In this document: piece after piece, positions 8,529 to 33,287 of the stretch
Layout of the letters: every line of letters starts with the position of its first letter
Position numbering within the stretch: the stretch's first letter is position 1
Assembly: GCA_014905635.1 (NCBI GenBank)
Contig: JABVCE010000050.1
Coordinates: forward strand, 1-64,000
Source: Scenedesmus sp. PABB004
Lineage: Eukaryota
Direction: 5' to 3'
Length of the DNA: 64,000 nucleotides
Made by a program: the position numbers and the translations under genes
The notes under the pieces: generated by a model
The model's input: the letters and a program-made list of their open reading frames with translations, nothing else
Database searches by the model: none
Told to the model about the DNA's origin: nothing

Positions 8529-11361
8529 ATGCTGCAGCGCCAGCGCCCCTTCACCCTCGCCCGGACCGGCGGCGGCGGCGCGTCGGGACGGCCATGCGCG
8601 AGGGCGGCGCCGCCGCGGCCGCCGCGGCGCGGCCGCCGCGCGGCGCTGCTGCCGCGCGCGGCGATGGACTCCGGCATGGTGCGACGCCCGGCCCGGCCCA
8701 GCGCCGCCCCGCTTGCCGCCTGCCGCAGCCGCGAGGGGCGCCCCGCCGCCGGGCCGCCGGCGGCGCGCCCGCGGCGCCCGCGCCGCGCCATCGCGCGACG
8801 CGCGCGTCGCGGCGCCGCGCGCCGCCGCCGCCGCCAACCGCCGCGCCCGCGCGCGCCCCGCAGGCGAAGCAGGCGGTCGCAGGCGGGAGCGAGGCCCAGG
8901 CCGCCGCGGCCGCCGCGGCCGCCGCGGCCGCCGCGGCCGCGGGCGCCACGGCGCCGGACCAGGCGGCGCCGGAGCAGCCGGCGCAGGCGGCGGTGCAGCA
9001 GGCGGCGGTGGCGCAGGCGCCGCCGCCGGCGCCCGCCGGCGCGCCGGCCGCCGCACCCGCCGCTGAGCAGCCGGCGGGCGCGCACGACGCGTCGTGGGAG
9101 GCCTGGTGCGCGCACTTTGCGGAGGCGGACGCGTCGGGCAGCCGGTACGACGCGCTGAGCGGCGCGCTGGCGGCTGCCGTGGCGGGCGAGGACTACGCCA
9201 CCGCGGCGGGCGTGAAGGCCGACCTGGACGCGCTGGCGGCGCGCGACGCGGTCGCGCGCGTGTCGGCCGCGCTGTCCGACGCGCTGGCGGCCGAGCGCTA
9301 CGCCGACGCGGCGGCGCTGCGCGACGCGGGCTGGGCGGCGCTGCAGGGCTGGTGGGCGTGCATGGCCGGCGGCCACCCCACGGGCCACCTGCTGCGCGTG
9401 TTCCCAGAGTGAGCGGACATGCGCGCGGGGCGCGGGGCAGCGGCGGCCGCTCGGCGCGCGCGGGGGCCGCTGCGCCTGCCGCCCCCTCACCGAGCCTGCC
9501 GCCGGCGCGCCGCGTCAGGTACGGGCGCTGGACTGGCAAGGCCTACTCGCCACGCGACCTCGCCGACCTGCAGGGCTGGGGCGAGGAGGAGCCGGGCACG
9601 CTGCTCGCGCGCATGCCCGGCGCCCGGCAGGCGCCGCTCCCCGGCGGCCGCCGCAGCGGCGGTGGCGGCGGCGGCGGCGGCGGCATCACGGCCGAGGGCC
9701 TCGCGCAGCTGGGCACGCCGCTGCTCGAGGTGTTTGTGCGCCGCGACGGCGGCGACGGCGGCGACGGCGGCGACGGCGGCGGCGACGTCGACATCGCGCA
9801 GCTGCGTAGCCAGGCGGTGCTGCTGCAGCCGAGCGGCGCGGCGGCCGCCGACGCGGCAGCGGCGCGGCAGTCGGCCCGCGACATTGGGCTCGAAGCAGAG
9901 CTGGGGGAGCTGTTCCGCTCCGAGGTCTCCCGCGCGGTCTGGGGCCGCGCGGGCGTGCCCGGCGACACCGCCGCGGCCGCCGCGGCGGGCCTCGCCAGCG
10001 GCGCGCTCGCGAGCGCGCCGGGCGGCGCGGCGGGCGCGGGCCCGCCCGGCATCAGCTACGAGCTGCTGTTCAGCGGCGAGGCGCAGCGCGGCGGCGACGA
10101 GGAGGAGGGCGAGCTGAGCGGCGGGCCGGAGCCGTGGGAGCGGCTGCTGGACGACGCGGAGCCCCTGCTGGCGGCGGCCGCCGCGGCGGCGGACGCGGCC
10201 GGCGGCGTGGAGTGCGCCGACGGCGCGACGCGGCCCCTGGACCGTGGCGCCCGCGGCAGCGCGGGCGCGCCGGTGCTGCAGCTGCTGCTGGAGGTCGCGG
10301 AGGGCTGCAGCAGCGTGCTGCTGGCCGCGCGCGCAGTGCGCGGCGGCGCAGGCGCCGGCGCGGGCGCGGGCGCGCGCAGCACCGCGTGGGTCGTCGCGGA
10401 CATGCCGCCGGGGCCGCCGCTGCTGCCGGGCGCGCCGTGCGACGGCGCCGCTGCGGAGGAGCGCGCCGCGCGGCTCGCGGCGTCGCTCGAGGCGCAGCGC
10501 GTGGTGCGGGAGATGCTGGGCGCGCGCGAGGGCTGGTGGATGACGGAGCTGGACGTGCGCTGGAACCCGCCGCCGCCGTCCGACGGCGCCGAGGCGGCGG
10601 CCGCGGCGGCGGGCCGCGACGACGCGGGCGCGGCCGACCTCACGCTGCTCGAGGACGAGGGCTGGCCCGTCCCCGACGATGAGGCCAGCCGGGCGGGCTT
10701 CTATGCGCCGTTCTACGCCCAGCCTGGCGGCGGCGGCGGGCTGCCGCTCGGCAACGCGCTGCAGGCGCAGGCGATGGCGGCGGGCCAGGCGCGGCAGGCC
10801 GCCGCGGCCGCGGCCGCCGCGGCCGCGGCGCCCGGCGGCGCCGGCGGCGGCCTCGCGGGCATGGCGGCGGACGAGGCGGACGAGGCACGGCAGACGCTCG
10901 CGCAGCTGAAGGGCCTCGTGTCGCCGCCCGAGCCCGGCGCGCGCCACGAGCCGTCCGTCACGTGGGCGCCGCCGGCCACGCGCATCACCTGCCTCGAGCA
11001 GGAGCGCCAGGCGGCGGACGAGGCCGCGGCGGGCGCGCCGCCCGTGCAGCAGGCGCGCGGGCGGCGGCGCGCGGCGGGCCGCCCGGCGCGCCCGGCGCGC
11101 CCGGCGCGCCCGGCGTGCCCGGCGCGCCTGGCGGCGGGCTCGGCGCCGGCTGGCCGGCGCCCGCGTGGCCGGCCGCAGCGCCCGTGAGCGGCGGCGCGGC
11201 GCTGGCGGAGCTGGGCGGCGGCTGCGAGGAGCTCGAGCGCCACCCAGCCATCATCACCATGCACGGCCGCGACGCCTTCACCGTCACGCCCTGCGCCACG
11301 GCGGTGGCGGCGGCGCAGCACGAGCAGCAGGCTCGCGGCAGCGGTGACGGCGCCAGCACTG

Positions 11362-11399
<38 letters not shown>

Positions 11400-12452
11400 G
11401 CAGGCGGCGACGGCGGCGCGTCCGAGCGCCCGCGGCGCAGTCTGTTTGTCGTTGAGGTGCCCACGGCGCCGCTGCCGGCGGCGCAGGCGGGCCTGGGCGC
11501 GGCGCAGCAGCAGCTGGACGCGGCGCGCGGCTACCACCGCGTGTGGCAGCTCGCGGCGCACCAGGTGCTGCTCCAGCACGCGTGCGCGGAGGAGGGCGCG
11601 GCGCGCGGCGAGCCGGCCGCGGCGCCCGGCGCCGCCGGCAGCCTGCCGGTCACGTGGCGCCAGCCGCTGGCCGACCTCATGGCCGCGCGCGCGGAGGAGG
11701 TGCTGTGGGGCGGCGGCGCCGCCGACGGCGGACCCGACGGCGAGGAGCCCGACCGCAGCGCCGCGGTCGCGGCGTGCGTGCCGGAGCACGCGCCGCTGCT
11801 GGTGCTGCAGCTGCCAGAGGCGCTCGTCGCGGCGAGCGTCGGCGCGCACGCGCCTGCGGCCGCGGCGTACGCCGCGCTGGACGACGACGCCGCGCCGCTG
11901 TCGCCGGGGCTCGCCGCCGCGGCGGGCGTGCGGCTGGCGCCGGCGGCGGCGCCGGCGGCGGCTGCCGAGGCGGGCGCCGGCGCGGCGCTGAGCTACCGGC
12001 GGCTGCCGGGCGGCGGCGCCGGCTCCGACCCGCTCACCGGCCTCTTCCTCGGCGCGTTTGGCCCGCACGGCCCCGAGCTGCTGCACCTGCGCCGCGGGCT
12101 GTGCATGGAGACGGGCGCGGAGGTCGTGGAGGCGCTGAAGCTCACGGGCGACGCCAACGTGCCCGCGGGCGAGGTCTCCTTCCGCGCGCGCGTCGGGCGG
12201 CGCGCGCGGCGCGACGCGCGCGGCGCCTACCCGCCCGCGCTCGACGTCGTCGCGCGCTACCCCGGCGAGGGCCGCGTCGCGGGGCCGGGGTTCAGCAACC
12301 CGCGCTGGGTGGAGGGCGAGCTGCTCGTGTTTGGCCGCGGCAGCGCCGCGGCGGCGAGCTGGACGTCCGGCGCGGCGCTCGGGTTTGTGTGGGCGGTGCC
12401 GGGCGAGAAGCGCTTCCTGATCCTGCTCAACGCCGTCACCCTGCCCGCCTGA
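8529..12452 (+). CDS. EX1: EXECUTER-like plastid protein (UVR-like region + DUF3506)
   Basis: Transit-peptide-like exon 1. SWEAWCAHF...EDYATAA...[11 protein letters not shown]...GWW...[14 protein letters not shown], and C-terminal [46 protein letters not shown], as in EXECUTER proteins. Confidence 0.85.
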
Positions 12453-15750: not shown

Positions 15751-19382
<3,632 letters not shown>

Positions 19383-19622
19383 TGATGCTCCTGCTGGCGC
19401 GGGGGCGTGGTGACTGGTCTCTCAACTCTGTTAACCTGATGGTGACCGGCCGCCGACGCGCGAGGCCGTTGCAGCCCCGCCGCGCCGAGGGCCCTGCACC
19501 ATGCCGCGCGACGCGGCCGCCGGGCGGCCGCTGCGCGCGCACGCGAGTGCGGCCGCCTCCCGGCCTCGCGGCATGCGCCGCGCTCTCCCCGCGCCCGGCA
19601 GACTCGCGCGGGGCGGTCGCTC

Positions 19623-21797
19623 CTACACTGCTGCCGCGAGCAGCAGCGGCGCGGCAGGCGCCGGCCGCCGCTGCTCGCACTGCGGCGCGGCGGGCCACGC
19701 GGCGGGCGCCTCGGGCAGGGCCTCGAGCGCCGCGTGCGCCGCCGCCAGCGCCGCGGGCTCGCGCTCCCTGAACGCGCCGGCGCCGAGCGCCTCGCACGCG
19801 CGCCCGTGCGCGGCCAGCCAGCCGCCGCCGGGGCGGTACCCGAGCCGCGCAAAGCCCTGCGCCAGCTGCACCAGCTCCGCGGGCCCGCACGCCGGCAGCG
19901 CCGCGGCCGACGCCTCGGCGAGCCGCGGCAGCAGCGGCCCGAGCGCGGCCGCGAGCGGGCGCCGCAGGTTGGCCGGCGCGAGGCGCGGCAGCGAGTGAAC
20001 CACCGCCGCGACGTCGGCGCCGGGCGCGAGGCTGTCGTCCGCGCGCGCCAGGAAGTGGGCGACCATGCCCGACACCCAGCCGTAGTGCGGCGCGTGCCGC
20101 AGCGCGCCGAGCGCGCGCAGCAACAGGCCGACGTCGCCCGCGCTCAGCCGCGCGCGCTGCGCCACCGCCGCACCGCGCGCGAGGCGCAGCAGGCGGGCGC
20201 TGGGCGCGTAGCGCAGGCGAGCCATCGACCACAGCAGCGCCGCGAGCTCCTGCCCGCGCAGCGCACGCGCGGCGACGGGCTGCCCCCGCGCGGCGCCGCG
20301 CGCCGCCGCGACGCCCTGGAGCCAGCACGCCGCGCCCGCGGCGCGCGCCGCCGCGGCCATGAAGGCGGCCCGGGGGCGGTAGCCCAGGCGGACGAGGGAG
20401 TGCAGCAGCAGCGCCACGTCGGCCAGCGCCACGTCGCCGCCGCCGCGCTGCGGCGCGCCCAGGCCGCGTGCCTGCTCCTCCCCTCCGCCCTCGGTGCCGC
20501 GGGCCTCCGCCGCCGCGGCGGCCGCAAACGCGTCGAGCTGCGCGCCCGCCGCCGCGAGCAGCGCGTCCACGGCGCCGGGCTGCGGCCGCAGGCCCAGGCG
20601 CGCGCACGCCAGCAGCGCCACGCACGCCAGCGTCAGCGGGCGCGGCTCGCGCGCCGCCAGGCCCTCCAGCCGCGGCAGGGCGGCGTCGGCGAGCGCCTGC
20701 ACGCCGGCGCTGTCGGCCGCCCAGGACGCGACGGCCGCGTCGAGCGCCCGCACCCGCTGTGGGTGGCTCCGCTGCAGCTGCGCCGCCTGCGCCGCCTGCG
20801 CCGCCGCCGCGCGCTGCCGCGCGAGCTGGCTGGTCGCCCAGAGCACCATCGCGACGTGCCGGCCCTGCATCGCGCCGGCGGCCGCGAGGCCCGCGCCACG
20901 CGCGAGCGCCGCCTCCAGCCAGGCCGCCTCCGCCTCGCCGCAGCCCAGCACCGCGAGGCCCCACAGGCCCATCGCGACGTCGGCCGCGCCCCAGCGGGGC
21001 AGCCCGCCCGCCGCCGCGCGCCGCCACGCGGCCTTCCACGCCGGCGCCACGCGCGTGCAGCGCGTGCGCAGCGGCGGCGCGGCCGCGAGGAGGCAGGCGC
21101 GCGTGAGCGTCGCGAGCGCCCACGACAGCAGCGCGAGCTCGCGCGGCCCGCAGCCGCCGCCGTCCATCGCGCGCCCGCTCGCGTCCAGCAGCGCGTCGAC
21201 CCAGCCCTCCGGCACGTCGTGCCCCAGCGCCGCGACCGCCCAGGCGAGGCCCGCGAGCTCGCCCGGCGCGAGGCTGCGCAGGTCGGCGCGCGCGAGCAGC
21301 AGCTGCAGCAGGCGGCGCGCGTGCGGGTACGCCGGCGCGCGCCGCCGCGCGAGGCCGGCCAGGCCGCACGCGATCGCCACGAGCTCGCGCGGCCCCGCGC
21401 CCGGGAGCAGCTCCTCCGCCAGCAGGCAGGCGTCGCCGAGCAGCAGCGACAGCGGCGCCGCCTCGGCGCGCGGCAGCGCCCGCGGCAGCACCCGGGGCAG
21501 GGCCGTGAGCAGCGCGGCCGCGTGGCGCGCGTTGAACGCGGCGCTGTGCTCGCAGAAGAGCTCGCCCGCCTGGCGCCAGTCGCCAGACGCGCCGATCGCC
21601 GCCGACAGCAGCGCGGGGTGCGCCGCCGGCGGCCGCGTGCGCAGCAGGGCGCGCAGCTCCTCCCACGTCCGGCCGGAGTTGCCGCCGCTCACGCCGGCGC
21701 CGGCGCAGCAGCAGCGCGGCCGCGACCGGCGCTCGCCGGCGCCGCGCGGCGCCGCCGCTGCGCCCCCAGCATGACCCGGGCGCGCGCCCAGCAGCAT
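19623..21797 (-). CDS. Octotricopeptide-repeat (OPR)-like organellar RNA-binding protein, intronless
   Basis: Degenerate helical repeats: LAPGELAGLAWAVAALGHDVPEGW, CGPRELALLSWALATL, LRGQELAALLWSMARLRYAP, CGPAELVQLAQGFARLGYRPGGGW. Arg/Ala-rich N-terminus. Confidence 0.8.
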   Translation of the reverse strand: MLLGARPGHAGGAAAAPRGAGERRSRPRCCCAGAGVSGGNSGRTWEELRALLRTRPPAAHPALLSAAIGASGDWRQAGELFCEHSAAFNARHAAALLTALPRVLPRALPRAEAAPLSLLLGDACLLAEELLPGAGPRELVAIACGLAGLARRRAPAYPHARRLLQLLLARADLRSLAPGELAGLAWAVAALGHDVPEGWVDALLDASGRAMDGGGCGPRELALLSWALATLTRACLLAAAPPLRTRCTRVAPAWKAAWRRAAAGGLPRWGAADVAMGLWGLAVLGCGEAEAAWLEAALARGAGLAAAGAMQGRHVAMVLWATSQLARQRAAAAQAAQAAQLQRSHPQRVRALDAAVASWAADSAGVQALADAALPRLEGLAAREPRPLTLACVALLACARLGLRPQPGAVDALLAAAGAQLDAFAAAAAAEARGTEGGGEEQARGLGAPQRGGGDVALADVALLLHSLVRLGYRPRAAFMAAAARAAGAACWLQGVAAARGAARGQPVAARALRGQELAALLWSMARLRYAPSARLLRLARGAAVAQRARLSAGDVGLLLRALGALRHAPHYGWVSGMVAHFLARADDSLAPGADVAAVVHSLPRLAPANLRRPLAAALGPLLPRLAEASAAALPACGPAELVQLAQGFARLGYRPGGGWLAAHGRACEALGAGAFREREPAALAAAHAALEALPEAPAAWPAAPQCEQRRPAPAAPLLLAAAV

Positions 21798-22703
21798 GGC
21801 GGCGCCTGGCGGCAGACGGCGGGGGCGGCGGGGGCGTCGTGAGCAGCGGCGGCCGCCGTTGCTGCCGCCACTCAGCCGCGGCGCCGCAGGCCCCGCCCGC
21901 CCGCCCCCGGCTGCCCGACACGCCCGCACCGGTGACGGGAGCAGCCCCGCGCCCGGGCGGTGCCTTGCGGCGACGGGGCAGCCGACTGCTGCTTCGGCGA
22001 CGCCGCGCTGCGAACGGGCTCCGGCGCGCCTGTACAGTTGCGGGGCGGCTATCGGCGTCTGCCGAGCGGGCGCGCGCGCGGCGCCGCGACGCGGGCGAGC
22101 CGCGAGGGCTGAGGCAGCGGCGGCCGGGAGATCCAGGCCGCCCCTGGCCGATCCGGTGGCCCCGAGATCGGACAAAACGCTATGCGTCGTCTCCGAGTGG
22201 CGGGCGCGAATGGGCGCCGGCGGCGCCGGCGGTTCCGGGCTGCGCCGCCGCTCGCTCACCGGCGGTTCCGGGCTGCGCCGCCGCTCGCTCACCCGCGCCC
22301 GACGCGGCGCGTCGCGACGGGCGCGCGCGGGCGCGTCCGCGGCAGCGCCTCCGTGCAGCCCGACAGCGCCAGGGGCGCGCGGCGTCACCGCTTCTGGTCA
22401 GCTTCTGCTGGCCAGCTTCTGCTGGCCCAAACCGCGCCCGCCACTCACAGCCCGTCCACGGCGCTCGCCCGATCAGCTTCACTCAACGCGCTCGCCCCAA
22501 GCAGCTCTCGACCTCTGCGCGCCGAGCGCAAGCCTCGATAAAACTTGCCACGACTGCCGTGCTCTCTGAACGCGCCCCGGCATCGCTCCCGCCCGGGCGA
22601 TCGACCCGTTAGCAGCTCCTGCACGCCTGGGAGTGCTCACGCACGCATCTCGCCGGGTGGTCGCGGCAGCAGCTCCGCGGTCGAGCAGCTCCCCGCGGCT
22701 CCC

Positions 22704-23240
22704 ATGGCTCGCTGCGCGGCGCCCCTGATCGCCCTGGCTCTGCTGGCCCTGCTCGCGGCGCCGGGCGTGGGTGCGCGCGGCGGCGGGCCCAAGGCGGCGC
22801 GCCAGGCTGGCGCGGGCCGGCCGCTGGGCGGCGGCGCCGGGCGCGGCGCGGCAGGCGCCCTGCCCCCGCCCGCCCTGCTCAGCCCGCATGCAGGCGACCC
22901 CCCTGCCAGCGTCGGCGCGGCCCGCGCCGTGCTCACGAGTCTGTGCCGCCGCCGCCGCCCCGGCACGCGCCCGCGCGCAGACGCGAGCGGCGGCGCGCGC
23001 AGCCTCGCGCAGTGGTGGGGGTACGGCAACCGCGGCCGCTACGGCGCGGTCGGGGACGCGCAGCTGGCGAGGAACAGTGCCAGCATTGTGAATACGCAAT
23101 ATGCGATACGATCGGCCGTCGAGTCGGGCGCGGAGCCGCGCACGACGCGCGCGGCGGCCGTGTACGGCAACGACCAGGCCTGGCTCGCGGCCAACAGTCG
23201 CTGGTACGGCTACGGCAACGGCTGGTGGGGCCGGCGCTGA
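22704..23240 (+). CDS. Small secreted peptide precursor (2 exons; intron 22771-22980)
   Basis: Spliced product MARCAAPLIALALLALLAAPGVDASGGARSLAQWWGYGNRGRYG...SRWYGYGNGWWGRR*. Phase-1 GT-AG intron. Confidence 0.75.
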   Translation: MARCAAPLIALALLALLAAPGVGARGGGPKAARQAGAGRPLGGGAGRGAAGALPPPALLSPHAGDPPASVGAARAVLTSLCRRRRPGTRPRADASGGARSLAQWWGYGNRGRYGAVGDAQLARNSASIVNTQYAIRSAVESGAEPRTTRAAAVYGNDQAWLAANSRWYGYGNGWWGRR

Positions 23241-24033
23241 TTGTGGCGCTCATGGGCGCCGTCACGGGTGGTTTGGCGCGAGCGTGAGCGCGTGGCGCGG
23301 CGTGAAGAGCGTGCGCGGCGAGCTGCGGCGTGTGGGCCGCGCGCTGCAGCTTGCAGCAGCCAACGCACGTGACGTGGGGGCGGGGCCGCCATCCGCATGG
23401 CGGCGGGCAGGTGCCAGGGGGAGGCCACCTTTCCCTTGTCGGCGCGGCCGGCCCACGCCGGCGCGCATGCAGGTTGTGACGAGTTGCACAGGTGCCGGAT
23501 CAGTTGCACAGGTTGCACGCCGCCGTCACACCGGCGGCAGTGACCCAGACTTGACCGTGGGGGTGCGGGTTGCACAGACGCGCGGGACAAGCCCGCGCTG
23601 CAGCGGGAGTGGCGGTGATCGCGACACGTCGAGCGTGATGGACTGGGGGGTTCAGCCTGCGGCGCGGCGGCTTGCAGGAGGCCGCCCTGACGGTCGGCGT
23701 GACGCGGGGGCAACAAGCAGCAATGCGCGGCAATGCGACAGTGTGCGCAGCGGCGGCGCGCGAGGCCGGCCCGCCGGCCGGCGCCGGCGGATGAACTTGC
23801 TCGCCTCCGTCGCACCCGGGGCTCGCAAAACCCTCGCGCCGCAGCGGCCGCTCAACACCACCGCCGCGCGCTGCTGCTCAGCGCACCTGCCCACGCCGTG
23901 CTCTCGCCACACTCGACCCCGCACAGCCGCCATCGCCGCGCGCCGTGCGCCGTCCTTCGACCGCTGCCGCCGCCGCCGCCGCCCGCCGCGATCGCAACCA
24001 CCTCCGCCGCCCCGGACGCAGCTCGCACTCCAA

Positions 24034-24639
24034 ATGAGCGATCCACCCAAGCAGCTGTTCGACGACGAGCGGTGGGAACGGCTGCTGGACGTCACGCTCC
24101 GCCGCAGCGTCTACGGCGTGCTCGCCGGCTCCGCAGTGGCGCTGCTGCTCTTCCGTGAGCGCGCGCGGCCGGCGGGCGCGGCGGGGCGCAGCGCAGGGCC
24201 AGATCGGGGCCTGCAGCAGCAGCGGCGGCAACCGCGGCGGCGGCGGCGGCGGCGGCGGGGCAGCGGCGCAGCGGCAGCCGCGGCACTGCCGCCTGGCAGC
24301 GGGCGCAACGTGGCGCAGCGCAGGACCAGATCGGGGCCCCGGCCGCTGCCGCCGGCACCGGGCGAGCGCCCACCCCGCCGCCGTGCCGCGCGCTCCGCAG
24401 GCGGGCCGAGTACGCGCGCAGCGAGCGTCGCGTTTGGCACGGGCTTCGGCGCCGGCTCGGCGTGGCAAGCATGCGCCAAGGACGTGAGCGCGGGCGGCGG
24501 CTCTGCCGCGAGGCTGCGGCCGCGGCGCGCGCGCGCGCTGCGCGGGGTCGGCCCCACCGCCGCCGGGCGCGCGCACCGACGCGGGCGCGCGCTGGCCGCC
24601 GCTGCCGCGCCGCCGTAGTTTGAGGGGCCGTCGAGTTGA
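24034..24639 (+). CDS. MIC10: MICOS subunit Mic10 (DUF543), 3 exons
   Basis: ERWERLLDVTLRRSVYGVLAGSAVALLLFR|GGPSTRAASVAFGTGFGAGSAW...|FEGPSS*. Two TM segments with the GxGxGxG motif. Confidence 0.85.
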
Positions 24640-25401
24640 CGCCGGCGCTGGCGCCCTGTTCAGAAGGAGCCGGCGCAGCCGCGCCACGCCGCCGGGCCGG
24701 GCGGCGGCAGCTGCAGCCGGCAGCGGCCGCCGCGACGGGCGTGGCGCTGGGGTGGGGCTGGGCGGGCGGCGAGCGGCGGGCGCAGCAGGTGACGAGCTGG
24801 TGGGGCGTTGACGAGCGCGGTTGAGGCCCGGTTCAGCAGGGTTTGGGAAACCGAGCTGCGTACGTCCCAGGCCTGCGTTCCACCGCTCGCTGCGCACCCA
24901 CGGCAGCCGCAGGGGGCGCACGCCTGTTGGCGGCGGCGCTGGTGAGCAGCAGTCTCACAACTCGTTTGCACCGCGGTCGCGCGCCCACCACAGCCCCCCA
25001 GCCCCTCCTTGCCGTCAGCTGAGCTCGGCCAGCCTCCGCGCGCGACGCCCGCACCCCGGCGCCAGCCAAGCGGCGCGGGCCCCCGGCGGCGCGCCCCGGC
25101 GCGCGCCCACTGGGCCCCTACGCACAGGGTGCGGGCGCCGGCGGTAGTCACCCGGGGCCGCACAAAAGCCCTGGCCCCCTTGCGGCCGCCGCCGCACGCT
25201 GGCGCGGGCGGCGGGCCGGCGGGGAGCCTCCCTGGGGTCAGCCCACACACAGCCAGCGTTACGCACAGCCAGCTGCGCACGTGCTGCACACGTGCGCAGC
25301 ACGCTGCGGCGGCACCCCCGACGACGCCCCCGCACGTACGTTGACACCCGGCCCCTTGGTGACGGCTGGCGAGAGCTCCGCGAGCCTTCGCACACCATGC
25401 C

Positions 25402-26646: not shown

Positions 26647-29600
26647 ATGGCGGACGTCGAAGAGGTCAGCCTTCGGCCGCTCTCACTGCGGCCCGGTGGC
26701 GGCCCCAACCCCTTCTCCGCGTTCAGCAAGGGCGCCGGCCTCGGGCTGCGCAGCAAGCCCGTGAGCGCGCGCCGCGCGCGGCCACCGGGCGGGCCTCGCC
26801 GGGGCCGTGCCCCCGCGCCCCGCCGCCGCCGGGCCGGGGGCTCAGGCGCGCCAATGGCCGCAGGTGTTTGCCACGGCCATCCAGGAGGTCGAGTCGGTGC
26901 CCCGCAAGCCGCGCCACCTCATCGTCCGCTATGACCGGGAGTTCCTCCTCAAGTTCATGGACGTGAGGCGCCGCCCCGCACCGACGCAGGGGCCCGCAAC
27001 CGCCGGCAACTGCCCGCGGCGGCCGGCGCGCGCGCCGCTGCTCCGCTGCTGCGCTGCTGCCGCCCATCGCGCCCGCGCCGCGCCGCGCCGCGCAGCAATA
27101 CATCAAGGCGCCGATCGAGGTGCAGCAGCTGCAGCTGGAGATTGTGATCGCGGAGGACACGGAGCGCGAGACGCAGCGGCAGGTCCTCAAGGTGCGCGGC
27201 GGCCGCTGCGCGGCGCCGGCGCGCCGTGCATCGACTGCGGCGCCCGCGGCGCCTGCGGCGGCTGGGCGGGGCGGCGGCGCCGCAGCCGCGCGCGCACGCG
27301 CCCGCCCGTCACGCGTGCGTGCGCGCGCGCCCCGCCCCGCAGCAAGTGGTGGAGGAGACGGAGGACGACCGCGACTGGCGCAGCCGGGCGCCGCTGGCCG
27401 CCGCAGCGCCCCCCGCCGGCGGCGGCGCGGCCGGCGCGCCGCAGCGGCAAGCGCCGCCGCCGCAGCAGCAGCAGCCCGCCGGCGGCGCGCCGGCGCTGCA
27501 GCAGCAGCAGCAGCCGCAGCGCCAGCAGCCCTCGCAGGACGCGCTGAGGATACACAAAGCGGAGGAGAAGGGCCGGCAGGCCTACAAGGTCGGCGGCGAC
27601 CTGGGCCAGCAGGAGCGGGTGCGTGTGTGGTCGGCGCGCAGCCGCGCGCGCGCGCGGCAGGCGGAGCCGCTCGCTGCGCACGCGGCGGGCGCGGCGGCGC
27701 CGCGCGCCGACCGCCCCGCCCCCCTGCCCGTGGCTGCCCCCGCGCGCGCAGGCGCTGCGCAGCGTGAAGGGCATCCTGAACAAGCTGACGCCCGAGAAGT
27801 TTGAGCGCCTGCTGAACCAGCTGCTGGAGGTCGTGACCACGGCGGACGTGCTCAAGCACACCATCGCGCTCGTGTTTGAAAACGCGGTCGCGCAGCCCAC
27901 GTTCTGCGCGATGTACGCCGACCTCTGCCTCTCCCTCTCCAAGGAGCTGCCCAGCTTCCCGCCGCCCGAGGGCGACGACAAGCCGGTCGCGTTCCGCCGC
28001 GTCCTGCTCAACACCTGCCAGGACGAGTTTGAGGGCGCCGCGCAGGCCCGCGAGGTGGGGCGACGCGGCGCGGCGCCGCGCGGGGCGGTGGCGGCGGCGG
28101 CGGCGGCGCAGGGGCAGGGGTCGGCCGGCAGCCGCGGCGGCGCCGCGCCCACCCCGCGCCGCGCCCGCGCCCGCGCCGCGCAGGAGCTGTCGACGCTGAG
28201 CGACCCCGCCGAGCGCGCGGCGGCGGAGAAGCGCGTGAAGAGCCGCACGCTGGGCACGGTGCGGCTCATCGCCGAGCTGTACCGCCAGGAGGTGGTCAAG
28301 GAGGCCATCATCACCGTCTGCCTGCGCGAGCTGCTCGAGGTGCGCGAGGGCGGCAGCGCGCCGCCGGAGGACAACATCGAGAGCGCGTGCGAGATGGTCA
28401 GCATCACGGGCAAGAGCCTCGCCGCCGCGGAGAGCAAGAAGACGCGCGACGCGCTCGACGCCTACCTCGCCCGCCTCGCGCGCCTCGGCGACGACAAGAC
28501 CCTCTCCAGCCGCGTCCGCTTCCTGGTGCGCGCCGCGCCGCCGCGCCAGCCCCACCTGCGCCACCGCGCGCGCGCGCCTCGCCCGCCTTGGCCGCCGCCG
28601 CGCCTCACCTCACCCCCCCCCCCCCCCCACACACACACCAACCACACGCACACCCGCCCACCCACCCGCCCACCCACCCGCCCACCTACCACCCCTCCCC
28701 CTCACACCCCCCAGATCCGCGACGTGCTCGACATGAGCAAGAACCGCTGGGTGCCGCGGCGCGAGACCTTCACGGCCAAGAAGCTCGACGAGGTGCACGC
28801 CGAGGCGGAGGCCGAGCTCGGCATGGTCAGCAGCCGCATCGTCGCGGACCTGCCCGCGCTGCCGGTGCAGGCGCGCATGGCGGCGGAGGACTTCAGCCTG
28901 CTGCCGCCGCTGCGCGGCGGCGAGGAGGGCTGGGAGTTTGTCGGCAAGCGCTCCGGCCGCGCGCCCGCGTTTGGCGCGGGCGGCAGCGCGCTCGTGGGCG
29001 AGTACAAGCCGCCCGAGCCGCTCACGCGCCCCGCGCCCGCGGCGGCGCCCGCGGCGGCGCCCGCGCCGCCCGCGGCGGCCGGCGCGGGCTCCGCCAAGGC
29101 GGGCAAGCCGGGCAAGCCGCTGAGCGGCGAGGACGTGGCCAACAAGACCAAGGGCTTCCTGCGCGAGTTTGTGGGCCTCGGCGACACGGCCGAGGCGGCC
29201 GCGTGCCTCGCGGAGCTGCGCGCCGCGCCAAAGGACGCCGAGGTCGCCGACCTCTCCGGCGTCGTCGAGGCGGGCGTGGCGGAGCTTTTCGACGCCCAGG
29301 TGCGCCCGCGAGCGAGCACGGCGGCTCGCGAGCAGGGCGGCCGGCGGCAGGCGCCGCGCCCGCGCGCCGCGCCCGCGCGCCGCGCCGCGCCGACTGTGCC
29401 CCTCCGCTCCGCGCGCGCGCGCGCCGCAGACGGACAAGGCGAGCGACGCGCTGCTGGGCCTGCTGAGCGGGTTCATCAAGGACGGCGCGCTCACGCCAGA
29501 CGAGGTCCGGGCCGGGCTCAAGCCCCTCACCTCCACGCTGGGAGACCTGGCGTGCGTGCCGCGCGCGCGCGCGCGCGCGGCGCTGCGTGGCGCGCGCGCC

Positions 29601-29996
29601 CGCCGCCAGCCCCGGCCCTGGCTCGCCGCGCGCGCCCCGCCACGCGCCGCACGCGCCTCACGCGCCTCACGCGCCGCGCACGCCGCGCGCAGGCTGGACG
29701 TGCCCAAGGCCCCGCAGCTGCTGGGCCGCCTGCTGGGCGAGGCGGTGGCCGCGGGCGCGCTGCCGCTCGCGGCGCTGCCGGAGCTGCTGGAGGGCGCGGA
29801 GGGCGCGGAGGCGAAGCGCGGCTTTGGCGAGGCCGCGCTCAAGGCGGCCGCGGCCGGCGGCGTCGACCTCGCGGCCGCGTGCGGGCCCGCGGGCGTGTCC
29901 GGCGAGGCGCTGTTTGCGGCGGACGAGTTTGACGGCGACCTGCCCAGCGTCAAGGACTGGCTCGCCGGCGCGGGCCTCAGCGCGGTGCCGCTGTGA
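26647..29996 (+). CDS. eIF4G: Translation initiation factor eIF(iso)4G-type (MIF4G + MA3)
   Basis: N-terminal SLRPGGG, eIF4E-binding YDREFLL, MIF4G VKGILNKLTPEKF...FCAMYADLC...LLNTCQDEFE, SSRVRFL|IRDVLD, C-terminal MA3-like DVPKAP. Confidence 0.93.
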
Positions 29997-30593: not shown

Positions 30594-33287
30594 TCAGACG
30601 GGCGGGCCCTCCAGGTTGCCGTAGAGAGCGAAATTGTTGTGGTGTGGGTTCCCCGAGGTCGCGCCAAACGCGTCGGCACCGTAGCCGAGAGCGCCAAAGT
30701 CGACGTCACACGCCCTGCGCCGCGCGGACGGCACACCGTCACGCTCGGCGCCGCGGCAAGCACCAGCGGTTGCCCCCCCCCCCCAATCTCCCCAGCGCAC
30801 CACGGCATGTCGGCGCCGGGCTCGTACGGCACCGGCGGCAGGCGGTACGGCACCGGCAGCAGCACAGGGGCGCCGTCCACGCCGTCGCCGGCCGGGTCGC
30901 GCTGCATGCGGTCCCACGCGAAGAAGCGCACCGGGCCGCCCTGCGCCGCGGCGCCGTCGGCAGCGCTGCAGCCCGCGCCGCTGCCCAGCGCCGCAGAGGC
31001 GGCCGCGTCGCCGGTGCAGCTGTAGAACCTGCGGGGCGCACGCCAGAGGGGCGACAGCAGCCGGTCAGCGGCGGCGGTGCTGGTGCGGCGCCACGCGCGC
31101 GACGCAGCGCCGCCGCAGTGCGCGCCTGTGCGGGTGCGAGCGCCACGCCTCCTCGAGCTTTGGCAGTGCCAGCACGCCCAGCTCGTAGCTGCGGACCATC
31201 AGCTGCAGCTGGCTGCCACTCTTTTGCAGGGACCCCCAGGCGGCCTTGGACAGGTTGTGCGAGGTGACCAGCCACCACGCCAGCTCCGCGCCCGCGCCGC
31301 GCGGCGCCGGCACGGCGCCGTTGCCCGGCGGCGGCAAGTAGCGCGCGTAGCTCTTGACGTGCGGCATGGCGGCGGCCCGGCCCGCGGGCTCGCCGCCCCA
31401 CCTGCACGCGGGGGCGCGCAGGGCGCGCGCGGTGTGCGGTGGGCGCCCAGGCGCCGCGCGCGCGGCGGCGGCGCGCGCTGCTCGCGCACCTGCACCAAAG
31501 GCGCTGCAGGAAGTCCTTGCTCACGTTCTTGTGCGGCCCCGGCACGCAGCCGCCCGCGATCCAGCCCTCGCACGAGTCCCGCACCTCCTCTGCAGTCGGC
31601 CACACCAGGCGCAGCGGCGCGTTGCTGGGCCCGGGGCCCTGGCCGCCAAACACGCGCGCCGCCGCCGCGACCGCTGCGGCGTGGCTGCTGGACGCCCCCG
31701 GCGGCGCAACGGGCGGGGCCGCGGGCGGCTCCAGGCGACCGGCGGTGAGGGAGGCTGTGAACTCCTCGTGCAGCCACTTGGCGTCGAGGCTGCCCAGGCT
31801 GCTGAACTGGGCAACTAGCTGCGCGGCGGCAAAGCGGCGCGGCAGCGTCGTGCCAGCCAGCAGCGCGCGCAGGCGCATGTGGCCCCACTTGTGCAGGTTG
31901 GCGCCTGCGCGCGCGGCAGACGAGGCGGCGGCGTCCCGGGCGTCGCGGGCGGCGGCGGCGGCGCGGGCGGCGTGGGTGGCGCGCACTCGCAGTGGAGACC
32001 ACGTGGGCGCGCGCCGCGCCGGCAGCGCCCTCAGGGGGCGGCCAGCGCCCACGCACCGCACCTGAGTGGTATCCGGGCACGCTGGCGACGAGCGCGACGC
32101 GCGCGCTGGAAAAGTCGGCGCCGCGGATGAGCGCGGCCACGCGCTCGCGCCAGTCCTGCGGCTGCTGCGGCAGCTTCAGTGCAGCGACGTAGTCGGCCAG
32201 GCTCTCCTCAAACTCGGAGCTCGTCGGCGCTGCGCGGGCGCGACGCGCAGGCGGCGCGCGCTTGAGCGGCGTGCGCGGCCGCTGGCGCGCGGACACGAGC
32301 TGCGTGCGCTGCCGCCGCGTGCGCGCACCGCCGGGGGCCTTGGGCGGGAAGTCCTGTGAGTAGATGCCCTGGGTCTTGTCGTTGCAGTCATGGTAGATCG
32401 CGTTTGCCGTCATGATGATGACCCGCACGCCGCCGCCCGCATAGCCCAGCAGGAACGCCTTGCTGTGGTGGCAGCCAAACCGGATGGGCAGCGGCGGGCG
32501 GTGCATCGCAAAGCCCGGCGCGGCCAGCCCCGCCGCCTCCGCGGCGCCGCGCAGGTGCTGCTCGCTCATGCCAAGCTCGCCGTGCACCAGCAGCAGCTGC
32601 GGCGCGGCGGCGCGTGCGGCAGCTGAGCGCGCGGGCGGCGGCCAGGCGGCGGCGCCAGGGACGACCCCTGCCTCCCGCTCCGCCCTCGCCCGGCGCCGCG
32701 CGCACCTCTGGGGCGGCCGCGAGGTCTGGGCAGGCGCTGAGCAGCCAGGTCAGGTCAAGCATGAAATTCTCCACCAGCGCCAGCCTCAGGCCCCGCCCGC
32801 CCACCAGCCGCCGCAGCAACGCGCCCGCGCAGCCCGCGTTGGCCCAGGCGGGCAGGCCCCTGCCCGCGGGTCCGGGGCACGCGGGTGCGTGGCGTTGGCA
32901 TGCGCGCGCGCACCGGCGGCTAGCGCGCGCGCTGGCGCAGGCCCAGGCGCACCTCACGGCCATCAGCGCGATGGGTGAGTCCCGCAGCCCCGGCGCAGGC
33001 ACGTGCCCTGCGTTGCCCTCGCCGCCCGCGGCGTCATAGGCGATGCGCGCCGTCATCTCCGCCAGCGTGGGCAGCACGCCGCCGCCACCGCCGGCGCTGA
33101 CGCCCAGCGCGCCGCGCTGCCTCTTGGCCGGCGGGCCGGCGTCTGCTGCCTCTGCGGCGCCGCCGCCCAGGCCGCCTTCTGCGCCGCCCGCCAGCCAGCC
33201 GCCGGCCGCCCCCTCCTCTGCCAGCGCTGCCGCCAGCGCTGCGTCCGCCGCCTCCTGCTCGCGGCGCGCGGCAGCGCCCGGGGCCTG

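What the first reader, a model, noticed from the sequence alone, without database searches (positions are those of the whole stretch)
22704..23240. Candidate neuropeptide-like precursor: signal peptide, RSLA|Q, C-terminal WW-GRR
Seen: after splicing, a ~108-aa protein with a signal peptide ending VDA, then a short pro-piece ending RSLA. A Gln follows and starts QWWGYGN; an echo motif WYGYGNGWW lies at the other end; the terminus is Gly-Arg-Arg. Established: RxLx is the S1P/SBT6.1 subtilase site, N-terminal Gln can cyclise to pyroglutamate, Gly plus basic residues is the PAM amidation signal, and Chlamydomonas has PAM and amidated secreted products. Inference: the product could be a pGlu...Trp-amide signalling, antimicrobial or wall peptide of an undescribed family.
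Basis: partly seen in the sequence, partly recalled or inferred. Interest (0 to 1): 0.7.

Follow-up and report, generated by a model that had tools for sequence, protein, structure and literature searches.

The report
Small secreted algal pro-protein family
A real but mis-annotated gene in a very GC-rich green alga encodes a small secreted protein of an unnamed family, and its conserved end motifs suggest it is trimmed and chemically capped at both ends like a peptide hormone, though no experiment shows this yet.

Summary
ATG 22704, a 210-nt in-frame GT..AG intron (22771-22980) and TGA 23238-23240 give a 108-aa product with a signal peptide, RSLA-Q, two Trp/Tyr/Gly arms and a terminal GRR.

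The gene is real. It has relatives of about 100-120 aa (E down to 6e-18). An exhaustive profile search of 1.84 billion representatives gave only 33 hits, 3 of them spurious. Every named relative is a 'hypothetical protein' of Sphaeropleales. There is no Pfam, PDB or fold match.

The public model, KAF8054976.1, uses the same intron. It then skips the stop and fuses to the neighbouring Mic10 gene.

An R-x-L/M-x motif follows the signal peptide wherever that region is present, and Q comes next in 28 of 36 contexts. Among 40 intact distinct tails, 29 carry G-[KR][KR] and 4 carry GRH or GGR. These match the -GRRR, -GR and Arg-His ends of proven Chlamydomonas amidated proteins.

Processing, the presence of PAM in this genome, and expression of this gene are all untested. 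The predicted product is a 73-aa helical hairpin, not a short neuropeptide, and its function is unknown.

The parts
22704..22770 (+). Exon 1. Start codon plus 22 codons and one base, encoding most of the signal peptide: n-region M-A-R, a 16-residue hydrophobic core, and the start of the c-region.
   Evidence: The spliced product is identical to public model P0017 over 103 residues. The signal peptide was called by eye (hydrophobic core, V at -3 and A at -1); SignalP was not available.
22771..22980 (+). Intron: 210 nt, GT..AG, phase 1, in frame and without a stop. Alternative in-frame acceptors lie at 22854 and 22893.
   Evidence: GC 0.87 and no codon-position periodicity. Relatives lack the 70 residues it would encode. 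The public model uses the same intron. A relative has an intron at the equivalent junction.
22981..23240 (+). Exon 2. End of the signal peptide, the pro-piece, the mature region and the stop (TGA 23238-23240).
   Evidence: The homologue aligns end to end up to the stop.
22986..23009 (+). Short pro-piece (8 residues) ending in the conserved R-S-L-A site (22998-23009). This is the inferred propeptide cleavage site.
   Evidence: R and Q are invariant and L nearly invariant in alignment A1. The R-x-[LM]-x motif appears in all 36 distinct contexts that keep this region. The spacer before it varies in length and sequence.
23010..23057 (+). N arm (16 residues), starting with the conserved Gln. It is rich in Trp/Tyr/Gly/Arg/Asn and predicted to be disordered.
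   Evidence: 75% W/Y/F/G/R/K/N, 4 aromatics; pLDDT below 50.
23058..23189 (+). Conserved 44-residue core, predicted to be a helix-turn-helix hairpin. It carries most of the invariant columns.
   Evidence: The core is exactly 44 residues in 10 of 10 close members. Helices 23-47 and 52-71 of P0002 appear in both AF2 runs, at low confidence (pLDDT 49-52).
23190..23231 (+). C arm (14 residues), rich in Trp/Tyr/Gly and ending in the conserved Gly (23229-23231).
   Evidence: 86% W/Y/F/G/R/K/N, 5 aromatics. G83 is invariant in A1.
23229..23240 (+). Gly-Arg-Arg-stop: the inferred signal for carboxypeptidase trimming and amidation.
   Evidence: Of 40 intact distinct family tails, 29 carry G-[KR][KR] and 4 more carry GRH or GGR. 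Chlamydomonas precedents are -GRRR, -GR and removal of Arg-His (PMC6919629).
23225..24107 (+). Not part of the gene. This is the 883-nt 'intron' of public model KAF8054976.1. It skips the last five codons and the stop, and joins this gene to the middle of the downstream Mic10 (DUF543) gene, whose own ATG is at 24034.

Best explanation
The locus is a two-exon nuclear gene of a scenedesmacean green alga. It encodes a 108-aa pre-pro-protein of a small, unnamed family whose named members all come from Sphaeropleales. Shown: the ORF, the family, its fixed architecture (signal peptide, variable spacer, R-x-L-x, aromatic/Gly/Arg N arm, 44-residue core, aromatic/Gly C arm, Gly followed by basic residues), and the mis-fusion in the public model. 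Inferred pathway: the signal peptide is removed after V-D-A. The 8-residue pro-piece is cut off at R-S-L-A by a secretory-pathway protease, either an S1P/SBT6.1-like subtilase cutting before Gln or a PEXEL-type protease cutting after Leu. A carboxypeptidase B/M-like enzyme removes the two terminal Arg. PAM then converts the exposed Gly into a Trp-amide, and the N-terminal Gln may cyclise. The result would be a cationic protein of about 8 kDa (73 aa, pI 9.7). Its helical hairpin would place two flexible, end-capped, Trp/Tyr/Arg-rich arms side by side. Because the polar surface of the core is nearly invariant while the arms keep only their composition, I favour a specific extracellular partner (a receptor or a wall polymer) over unspecific membrane attack. 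That last step is the weakest.
For: Gene and family: relatives at E 5e-13 to 6e-18; 33 hits in 1.84 billion representatives, of which P0032, P0037 and P0043 are spurious; named members only in Tetradesmus obliquus, two Scenedesmus strains and Raphidocelis subcapitata. Splicing: plus the same intron in the public model. True stop: the T. obliquus homologue aligns through the terminal G-R-R, whereas the public model loses similarity after residue 101. DUF543 belongs to the neighbour, which has its own ATG. N-terminal site: R and Q are invariant in A1; R-x-[LM]-x is found in 36 of 36 distinct contexts that keep the region, followed by Q in 28 and D in 1; the spacer before it is variable. RKLL is a pro-PME processing motif and SBT6.1/S1P processes pro-RALF23 (bioRxiv 10.1101/2022.07.28.501549, passages). 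Chlamydomonas has an S1P-like subtilase core (PMC6313938, passages). C-terminal site: 29 of 40 intact distinct tails have G-[KR][KR] in the last 14 residues, sometimes followed by 1-11 further residues, and 4 more have GRH or GGR. The motif persists in subfamilies whose C arm is not Gly-rich. In C. reinhardtii only 24 of 771 signal-peptide proteins end in Gly(K/R)n, and mass spectrometry showed amidated products from proteins ending -GRRR and -GR and from a site needing removal of Arg and His (PMC6919629, passages). A family member in Scenedesmus sp. NREL 46B-D3 (JGI 1479461) has RNA-seq values of about 7-52 in all 72 samples (PMC7955037, supplement file 2). Metallocarboxypeptidases annotated 'Carboxypeptidase M' and an S8/S53 peptidase appear in a S. 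obliquus table (PMC12638912, supplement 4). Physical properties.
Against: There is no direct evidence that this gene is transcribed, spliced or secreted. No whole genome is held, so PAM, carboxypeptidase, S1P-like subtilase and glutaminyl cyclase could not be sought. The words peptidylglycine, amidating, ascorbate-dependent and NHL do not occur in the S. obliquus table searched. That table is cut and lists only differentially expressed genes, and two of its entries carry the GO term 'dopamine beta-monooxygenase activity'. I found no paper linking PAM to Sphaeropleales. Seven of 40 intact tails lack Gly-basic: 5 end in or just after a Cys loop, and 2 are otherwise different. Q after the site is absent in 8 of 36 contexts. 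Both motifs could be structural or charge features of the mature protein. AF2 confidence is low (pLDDT 49-52), so the hairpin is a secondary-structure-level inference. The product is much larger than classical amidated peptides.
Confidence: 0.5

Rival explanations
1. It is an ordinary small secreted or wall protein, and signal-peptide removal is the only processing. On this view the R-K-L-L-Q segment is the structured start of the mature protein. The terminal Gly-basic run is then a charge patch that holds the protein on acidic wall polymers or membranes, not a signal for cleavage or amidation.
For: No enzyme or product evidence exists. The first AF2 run put a short helix over the L-A-Q-W segment. 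The arms are Arg/Lys-rich anyway. Seven of 40 tails do without Gly-basic. PAM is not documented for Sphaeropleales in what I searched.
Against: In 29 of 40 distinct tails a Gly immediately precedes a basic pair, including subfamilies with Gly-poor C arms, and a further 4 tails read GRH or GGR. A pure charge patch would not need that Gly. The motif is kept whether it is terminal or followed by up to 11 unrelated residues, which is how a cleavage site behaves. The segment before R-x-L-x varies freely in length and sequence, as pro-pieces do.
Confidence: 0.3
2. It is a cationic Trp/Tyr/Arg-rich antimicrobial or allelopathic protein, processed or not. The aromatic/arginine arms would insert into foreign membranes, and end-capping would serve only to resist exopeptidases.
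For: Net charge about +3, pI 9.7, and 12 aromatic residues in 73. The arms are conserved in composition but not in sequence. That Trp/Arg- and Gly-rich antimicrobial peptides are often amidated is recalled knowledge, not tested here.
Against: The 44-residue core is length-invariant, and its polar positions are nearly invariant among members only about 60% identical overall. That fits a specific partner better than unspecific membrane attack. One copy was found in the window and at least two paralogue types are named in T. obliquus, so no large expansion was seen. No activity data exist.
Confidence: 0.1
3. The public model is right. On this view the locus is the 5' part of a longer gene whose product carries a Mic10/DUF543 domain. 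A variant of this rival is that the intron is retained or spliced at 22854 or 22893, giving a longer pro-region.
For: KAF8054976.1 is annotated that way. The intron is in frame and open. Two alternative in-frame acceptors exist. No RNA data are available.
Against: All nine closest relatives end at the aromatic-Gly-basic tail exactly where the window has its stop. The model covers only positions 34-74 of the 75-position DUF543 profile, while an ORF with its own ATG at 24034 supplies positions 13-49. An ER signal peptide fused to a mitochondrial inner-membrane protein is implausible; this point is an inference. The intron shows no codon periodicity.
Confidence: 0.07

Closest known systems
Chlamydomonas reinhardtii amidated pro-proteins (Cre03.g204500, the GATI-amide precursor; Cre12.g487700; Cre17.g722300). 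PMC6919629, passages read.
   Same: All are chlorophycean secretory proteins with a signal peptide. Their C-termini, -GRRR, -GR and a site followed by Arg-His, are trimmed and amidated by PAM. The same three kinds of end occur in this family (G-[KR][KR] and longer basic runs, GGR, GRH).
   Different: I saw no sequence relationship: nothing outside the small family appeared in the exhaustive search. A direct comparison was not made because I held no Chlamydomonas sequence. The Chlamydomonas examples are large (94 kDa for Cre03.g204500), have many dibasic sites and are bound to ectosomes. This product is about 8 kDa with one predicted product. Amidation is proven there and only inferred here.
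Plant S1P/SBT6.1 substrates: pro-RALF23 and pro-pectin methylesterases with RKLL/RRLL motifs. bioRxiv 10.1101/2022.07.28.501549, passages read.
   Same: The layout is signal peptide, then pro-piece, then an R-x-L-x / RKLL motif, then the mature secreted domain. RALF-like in being a small basic secreted product.
   Different: There is no RALF or PME similarity (no Pfam hit at E up to 10). The pro-piece is much shorter. Land plants lack PAM (PMC6529398, passages), so the C-terminal logic has no plant counterpart.
PEXEL-type maturation sites of apicomplexans (R-x-L-x-E/Q/D, cleaved in the ER by plasmepsin V). PMC10900883, abstract seen in a search listing.
   Same: A pentamer of the same pattern lies a short distance after a signal sequence. 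It is matched by 29 of the 36 contexts.
   Different: PEXEL belongs to a parasite system for export into host cells, with cleavage after Leu by an aspartic protease. This alga is free-living, and no such protease was examined.
Mic10 / DUF543 (PF04418), the only domain annotated on the public model of this locus
   Same: Nothing beyond adjacency on the same strand.
   Different: The domain lies wholly in the downstream gene, which has its own ATG at 24034. The family itself has no Pfam domain.

Membership tests
Candidate amidated pre-pro-protein (criteria used for C. reinhardtii in PMC6919629) | N-terminal signal peptide | tested here: met
   Read directly from the sequence: M-A-R, a 16-residue hydrophobic core, and V-D-A at -3..-1. 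The full-length relatives whose N-termini I read by eye show the same layout. No predictor was run.
Candidate amidated pre-pro-protein (criteria used for C. reinhardtii in PMC6919629) | C-terminal Gly(K/R)n, or Gly followed by a dibasic site | tested here: met
   G-R-R-stop at 23229-23240. Conserved in 29 of 40 intact distinct tails, with 4 more reading GRH or GGR.
Candidate amidated pre-pro-protein (criteria used for C. reinhardtii in PMC6919629) | PAM and a carboxypeptidase B-like enzyme present in the same organism | not testable with these tools
   No genome is held. The only leads come from a relative's table: 'Carboxypeptidase M' entries and two 'dopamine beta-monooxygenase activity' GO entries, with no 'peptidylglycine' entry.
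Candidate amidated pre-pro-protein (criteria used for C. reinhardtii in PMC6919629) | Amidated product detected | not testable with these tools
   This needs mass spectrometry. The cell-wall proteome supplement that I searched does not list any family accession.
Classical neuropeptide precursor | Short (under about 40 aa) or multi-copy peptides flanked by dibasic sites | tested here: not met
   A single predicted 73-aa product. The only multi-repeat hits in the exhaustive search (P0032, P0037, P0043) were spurious.
S1P/SBT6.1 substrate | R-x-x-L or R-x-L-x motif between pro-piece and mature part | tested here: met
   R-S-L-A here. R-x-[LM]-x in 36 of 36 contexts that keep the region.
S1P/SBT6.1 substrate | Cleavage by an S1P-type subtilase | not testable with these tools
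   No genome and no biochemistry were available. Chlamydomonas has an S1P-like catalytic core (PMC6313938).
RALF peptides | Sequence membership (Pfam RALF domain) | tested here: not met
   No Pfam family at E up to 10 for P0001 and P0002. None at E up to 1 for three relatives.
Mic10 / DUF543 | DUF543 domain within this gene's product | tested here: not met
   No hit on P0001 or P0002. The domain maps to the downstream ORF with its own ATG.

The most novel reading that the evidence does not exclude
The family is a Sphaeropleales-specific extracellular ligand, capped at both ends (pyroglutamyl N-terminus, Trp/Tyr-amide C-terminus). It would be an algal counterpart of RALF-type or animal peptide hormones, with a helical-hairpin receptor-binding core and two aromatic arms that tether it to the wall. 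It would be made by the S1P-like/carboxypeptidase/PAM pathway and would control a population-level trait such as coenobium formation or autospore release. That would make it the first small, foldable PAM substrate family with a testable signalling role outside Chlamydomonas and animals.
Probability: 0.12. Interest if true: 0.75.

Novelty: new member of a known kind. Interest (0 to 1): 0.45.

Why it matters
The substrates and roles of peptide amidation in green algae are known from only a handful of large Chlamydomonas proteins. This family offers a small single-product candidate of about 8 kDa. Its two putative maturation sites are conserved across genera, including variants (GRH, GGR) that match the proven Chlamydomonas cases. 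One top-down mass measurement could therefore confirm or refute the whole pathway. It also corrects a public gene model that fuses a secreted protein to mitochondrial Mic10. The wider lesson is that, in 80% GC genomes where every frame is open, small secreted genes are easily lost or merged. If the motifs are not processing signals, the finding reduces to an ordinary lineage-specific small secreted protein.

Tried and rejected
- Wrong frame at first: one search started one base late. Corrected.
- Whole genome: none is held, so PAM, carboxypeptidase and subtilase searches in the organism were impossible.
- RNA evidence: no RNA holder was listed for 22500-23500.
- Genomic loci of relatives: the metagenome scan with alignment A1 found no relative. 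The scan with P0007 returned four loci (L001-L004) that match only 19-21 residues of P0007's non-family N-terminal part. None contains the family core, so all were rejected as spurious.
- Paralogues in the window: none. tblastn finds only the locus itself.
- Pfam: no family for the product or three relatives.
- ESM Atlas: no usable hit.
- PDB profile search: best E-value 0.3.
- Foldseek against PDB: no match. The model is low-confidence in any case.
- Long hits P0032 (coiled-coil repeats) and P0043 (Ig-like repeats), and P0037 (translation of a DNA repeat): rejected as false positives after reading them.
- Earlier notes of this scan: nothing found by place or by sequence.
- Literature searches for the core motif, locus tags and accessions: 0 papers.
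- Scenedesmus plus peptidylglycine: one irrelevant paper.
- Sphaeropleales names plus peptidylglycine: none of the 40 listed papers (of 348) contains 'peptidylglycine'.
- Cell-wall proteome of S. obliquus (PMC11839794): family accessions are absent from the one supplement held, and Table 3 as shown in the passages does not list them.
- S. obliquus UTEX393 table: it uses another ID scheme, so the T. obliquus member could not be looked up.

Full report
**Observation.** The window is 75-83% GC throughout, so open frames are everywhere: 95 stop-to-stop frames of at least 330 aa. At the finding, an ATG at 22704 opens a frame that runs without a stop to TGA 23238-23240 (178 aa, P0001).

It is 210 nt, GTGCGC...GCGCAG, phase 1 and a multiple of three. 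Removing it gives 327 nt, or 108 aa. The product has a signal peptide ending V-D-A and an 8-residue piece ending R-S-L-A. A Gln then opens a Trp/Tyr/Gly/Arg-rich stretch, a similar stretch sits at the other end, and the protein finishes with G-R-R-stop.

**Is the intron real?** Stop codons do not force it, so I looked for other evidence.
- The nine closest relatives are 101-122 aa and have nothing matching the 70 intron-encoded residues.
- The spliced CDS shows the codon-position GC pattern expected of coding sequence in such a genome (0.69/0.64/0.91). The intron is flat (0.83/0.89/0.90) and, at 0.87, more GC-rich than either exon.
- The public protein P0017 (KAF8054976.1, named by the tools as Scenedesmus sp. 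PABB004) is identical to the spliced product over its first 103 residues, so it uses the same intron.
- In a relative, the same gene is on record in two forms. In one the signal peptide is joined to the rest (P0003; P0012 also carries upstream read-through). In the other (P0045) an identical 88-residue C-terminal part is preceded by unrelated residues. P0004 and P0016 behave the same way. I read this as spliced versus intron-read-through copies, which places an intron at the equivalent signal-peptide/pro-piece junction.
- There is only one in-frame donor. Two other in-frame acceptors (22854, 22893) would lengthen the pro-region and cannot be excluded without RNA.

**The public model is a chimera.** After residue 103, P0017 leaves the family. 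It uses a GT at 23225, five codons before the stop, and rejoins at 24108 inside the next gene.

Pfam finds DUF543 (Mic10) at P0017 residues 105-148, covering only profile positions 34-74 of 75. An ORF with its own ATG at 24034 supplies positions 13-49. The T. obliquus homologue aligns to the window's frame right through the terminal G-R-R, but to P0017 only as far as residue 101.

**The family.** A search with exon 2 found nine relatives at E 5e-13 to 6e-18. A profile of these, scored against all 1.84 billion representatives, gave 33 hits at E up to 1e-3. Three of them (P0032, P0037, P0043) are repeat artefacts. Two further word-index searches with wider alignments added a few members.

All named members are 'hypothetical' or 'uncharacterized' proteins. 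They come from Tetradesmus obliquus (two paralogue types), Scenedesmus sp. NREL 46B-D3, Scenedesmus sp. PABB004 and Raphidocelis subcapitata, so all named members belong to Sphaeropleales.

Nothing links the family to a known one:
- no Pfam family;
- no PDB sequence relative (best E 0.3);
- no Atlas neighbour;
- no Foldseek match;
- no paper containing the core motif, the locus tags or the accessions.

There is no second copy in the window. The neighbours are unrelated genes with Pfam matches to Cyclin D1-binding, adenylosuccinate lyase, Mic10, MIF4G and Tdp1 domains.

**Architecture.** In the ten closest members the core is exactly 44 residues with no indel. It holds most of the invariant columns. 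The N arm is 11-16 residues and the C arm 12-17. Both arms are 62-92% W/Y/F/G/R/K/N, against 25-34% in the core, with 3-5 and 4-7 aromatic residues respectively.

AlphaFold2 with 10 and then 33 sequences gave the same picture at low confidence (pLDDT 49 and 52). Two helices, at 23-47 and 52-71 of P0002, form a hairpin, and both arms are unstructured. A hairpin would bring the two arms together at one end of the molecule; this is an inference.

Columns invariant across the wider family are small or hydrophobic and spaced as expected for helix-helix packing. The closer group also conserves many polar positions. Some subfamilies add a Cys pair within an arm.

*N-terminal side.* R and Q are invariant and L nearly invariant in A1. 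One search printed 36 distinct sequence contexts. I removed one spurious pick (P0031) and the duplicate of the window's own gene (P0017). I then added two contexts read by eye (P0063, P0064), which again gives 36.
- All 36 read R-x-[L/M]-[L/A/Q/V]. The script's pattern required this, so the alignment columns are the unbiased measure.
- The next residue is Q in 28, D in 1, and T, A, G, N or Y in 7.
- The 11 rows without the motif are N-terminally truncated or mis-modelled.
- The stretch between the signal peptide and the motif varies from about 7 to over 30 residues and is not conserved. That is how a pro-piece behaves.

RKLL is a described pro-PME processing motif, and S1P/SBT6.1 processes pro-RALF23 (passages). 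Chlamydomonas encodes a subtilase whose core most resembles S1P (passages). The pentamer also fits the PEXEL pattern R-x-L-x-[EQD], which plasmepsin V cleaves in the ER (abstract in a listing). The responsible protease, and the exact bond cut, therefore remain open.

*C-terminal side.* The 61 family rows give 47 distinct last-14 tails. Seven of these belong to broken or truncated models. The remaining 40 divide as follows:

| Tail type | Distinct tails |
|---|---|
| G-[KR][KR], terminal or followed by 1-11 residues | 29 |
| GRH | 2 |
| GGR | 2 |
| Ends in or just after a Cys loop | 5 |
| Otherwise different | 2 |

The Gly persists in subfamilies whose C arm is not Gly-rich. In C. reinhardtii only 24 of 771 signal-peptide proteins end in Gly(K/R)n. 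The three amidated products found there by mass spectrometry derive from a protein ending -GRRR, one ending -GR, and a site needing removal of Arg and His (passages). So 33 of 40 tails fall within the experimentally precedented range for a chlorophycean alga.

**Mechanism I commit to, and what is inferred.** The gene, the family, the architecture and the motif conservation are shown. The following steps are inferred:
1. co-translational entry into the ER and signal-peptide removal;
2. loss of the short pro-piece at R-S-L-A;
3. removal of the two Arg by a carboxypeptidase B/M-type enzyme;
4. amidation of the new C-terminal Trp by PAM;
5. possible cyclisation of the N-terminal Gln.

The product would be 73 aa, about 8.07 kDa before modification, with pI 9.7 and net charge about +3. 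End-capping makes functional sense for a protein whose two termini are long, flexible and exposed outside the cell. The nearly invariant polar core suggests a specific partner. I put the whole chain at about 0.5, the existence of a secreted family protein at about 0.9, and any particular biological role well below that.

**Supporting leads.**
- A family member in Scenedesmus sp. NREL 46B-D3 is transcribed in all 72 RNA-seq samples of PMC7955037. Values are about 7-52, it sits in the unassigned 'grey' module, and it is highest in the first cold time point (supplement files 2 and 4).
- A S. obliquus table lists carboxypeptidase M-type metallocarboxypeptidases and an S8/S53 peptidase.

**Gaps and counter-evidence.**
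- That same table has no entry worded peptidylglycine, amidating or NHL. It has two entries with the GO term for dopamine beta-monooxygenase activity, which may or may not be PHM-type enzymes. The file is cut and lists only differentially expressed genes.
- PAM is reported for Chlamydomonas, Gonium, Volvox and Ostreococcus, and PHM for Coccomyxa and Chlorella, with loss in land plants (PMC6529398 passages). I found nothing for Sphaeropleales.
- For this gene itself no whole genome is held. bioRxiv supplements are closed and were not needed.

**Comparison and novelty.** By mechanism, the locus most resembles the Chlamydomonas amidated pro-proteins at its C-terminus and plant S1P substrates (RALF, pro-PME) at its N-terminus. 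It is a sequence member of neither. It fails the 'short or multi-copy peptide' criterion of a classical neuropeptide precursor. It is not a Mic10 protein.

I file it as a new, unnamed family belonging to a known kind: candidate amidated secretory pro-proteins of green algae. The interest is moderate. The pattern evidence is unusually clean and directly testable, but nothing is yet shown biochemically, and lineage-specific small secreted proteins are common.

Noticed in passing
window 23225-24107 and 24034-24640: Public model KAF8054976.1 fuses the small secreted gene to the downstream Mic10 (DUF543) gene across an 883-nt false intron. The fusion drops the true stop of the first gene and the first 25 codons of the second. 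Mic10 has its own ATG at 24034.
   Followed up: yes
window 22226-22297: A 33-bp unit is repeated 2.2 times at 97% identity, just upstream of the gene. On the minus strand it lies inside a 924-aa open frame (19623-22397) and would duplicate an 11-residue segment there. That frame has no Pfam match at E up to 0.01.
   Followed up: partly
window 22394-22427: A 14-bp unit (CTGGCCAGCTTCTG) is repeated 2.4 times, about 280 bp upstream of the ATG, in the presumed promoter or 5' UTR. Its function is unknown.
   Followed up: no
window 23484-23577: The octamer TTGCACAG occurs three times within 94 bp, between the stop of this gene and the start of Mic10. The whole 64-kb window has only 5 plus-strand and 1 minus-strand copies. 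No TGTAA or AATAAA lies between 23241 and 24033, so the polyadenylation signal of this gene is not the volvocalean type.
   Followed up: partly
window 10683-12452, 17156-19385, 27548-29932, 30739-32749: Neighbouring frames carry Cyclin_D1_bind, adenylosuccinate lyase (Lyase_1 plus ASL_C, split over frames by introns), MIF4G and tyrosyl-DNA phosphodiesterase domains. This is ordinary nuclear gene content, with no clustering of secretory or processing genes.
   Followed up: partly
relatives P0034, P0049, P0050, P0051, P0048 (not in the window): The second subfamily, with a G-K-R-K-Q type tail, shows a further break point inside helix 1. There, genomic-type ORFs diverge from the full-length protein, suggesting an extra intron absent from the window's gene.
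   Followed up: partly
relatives P0021, P0024, P0027-P0031, P0033, P0035, P0038, P0040, P0023, P0026: Several subfamilies carry a Cys pair inside one arm. In five of these tails no Gly-basic motif remains and a Cys lies at or within two residues of the end (four end on the Cys itself). This may be an alternative way of protecting the end. Others have both the Cys loop and G-K-K/R.
   Followed up: partly
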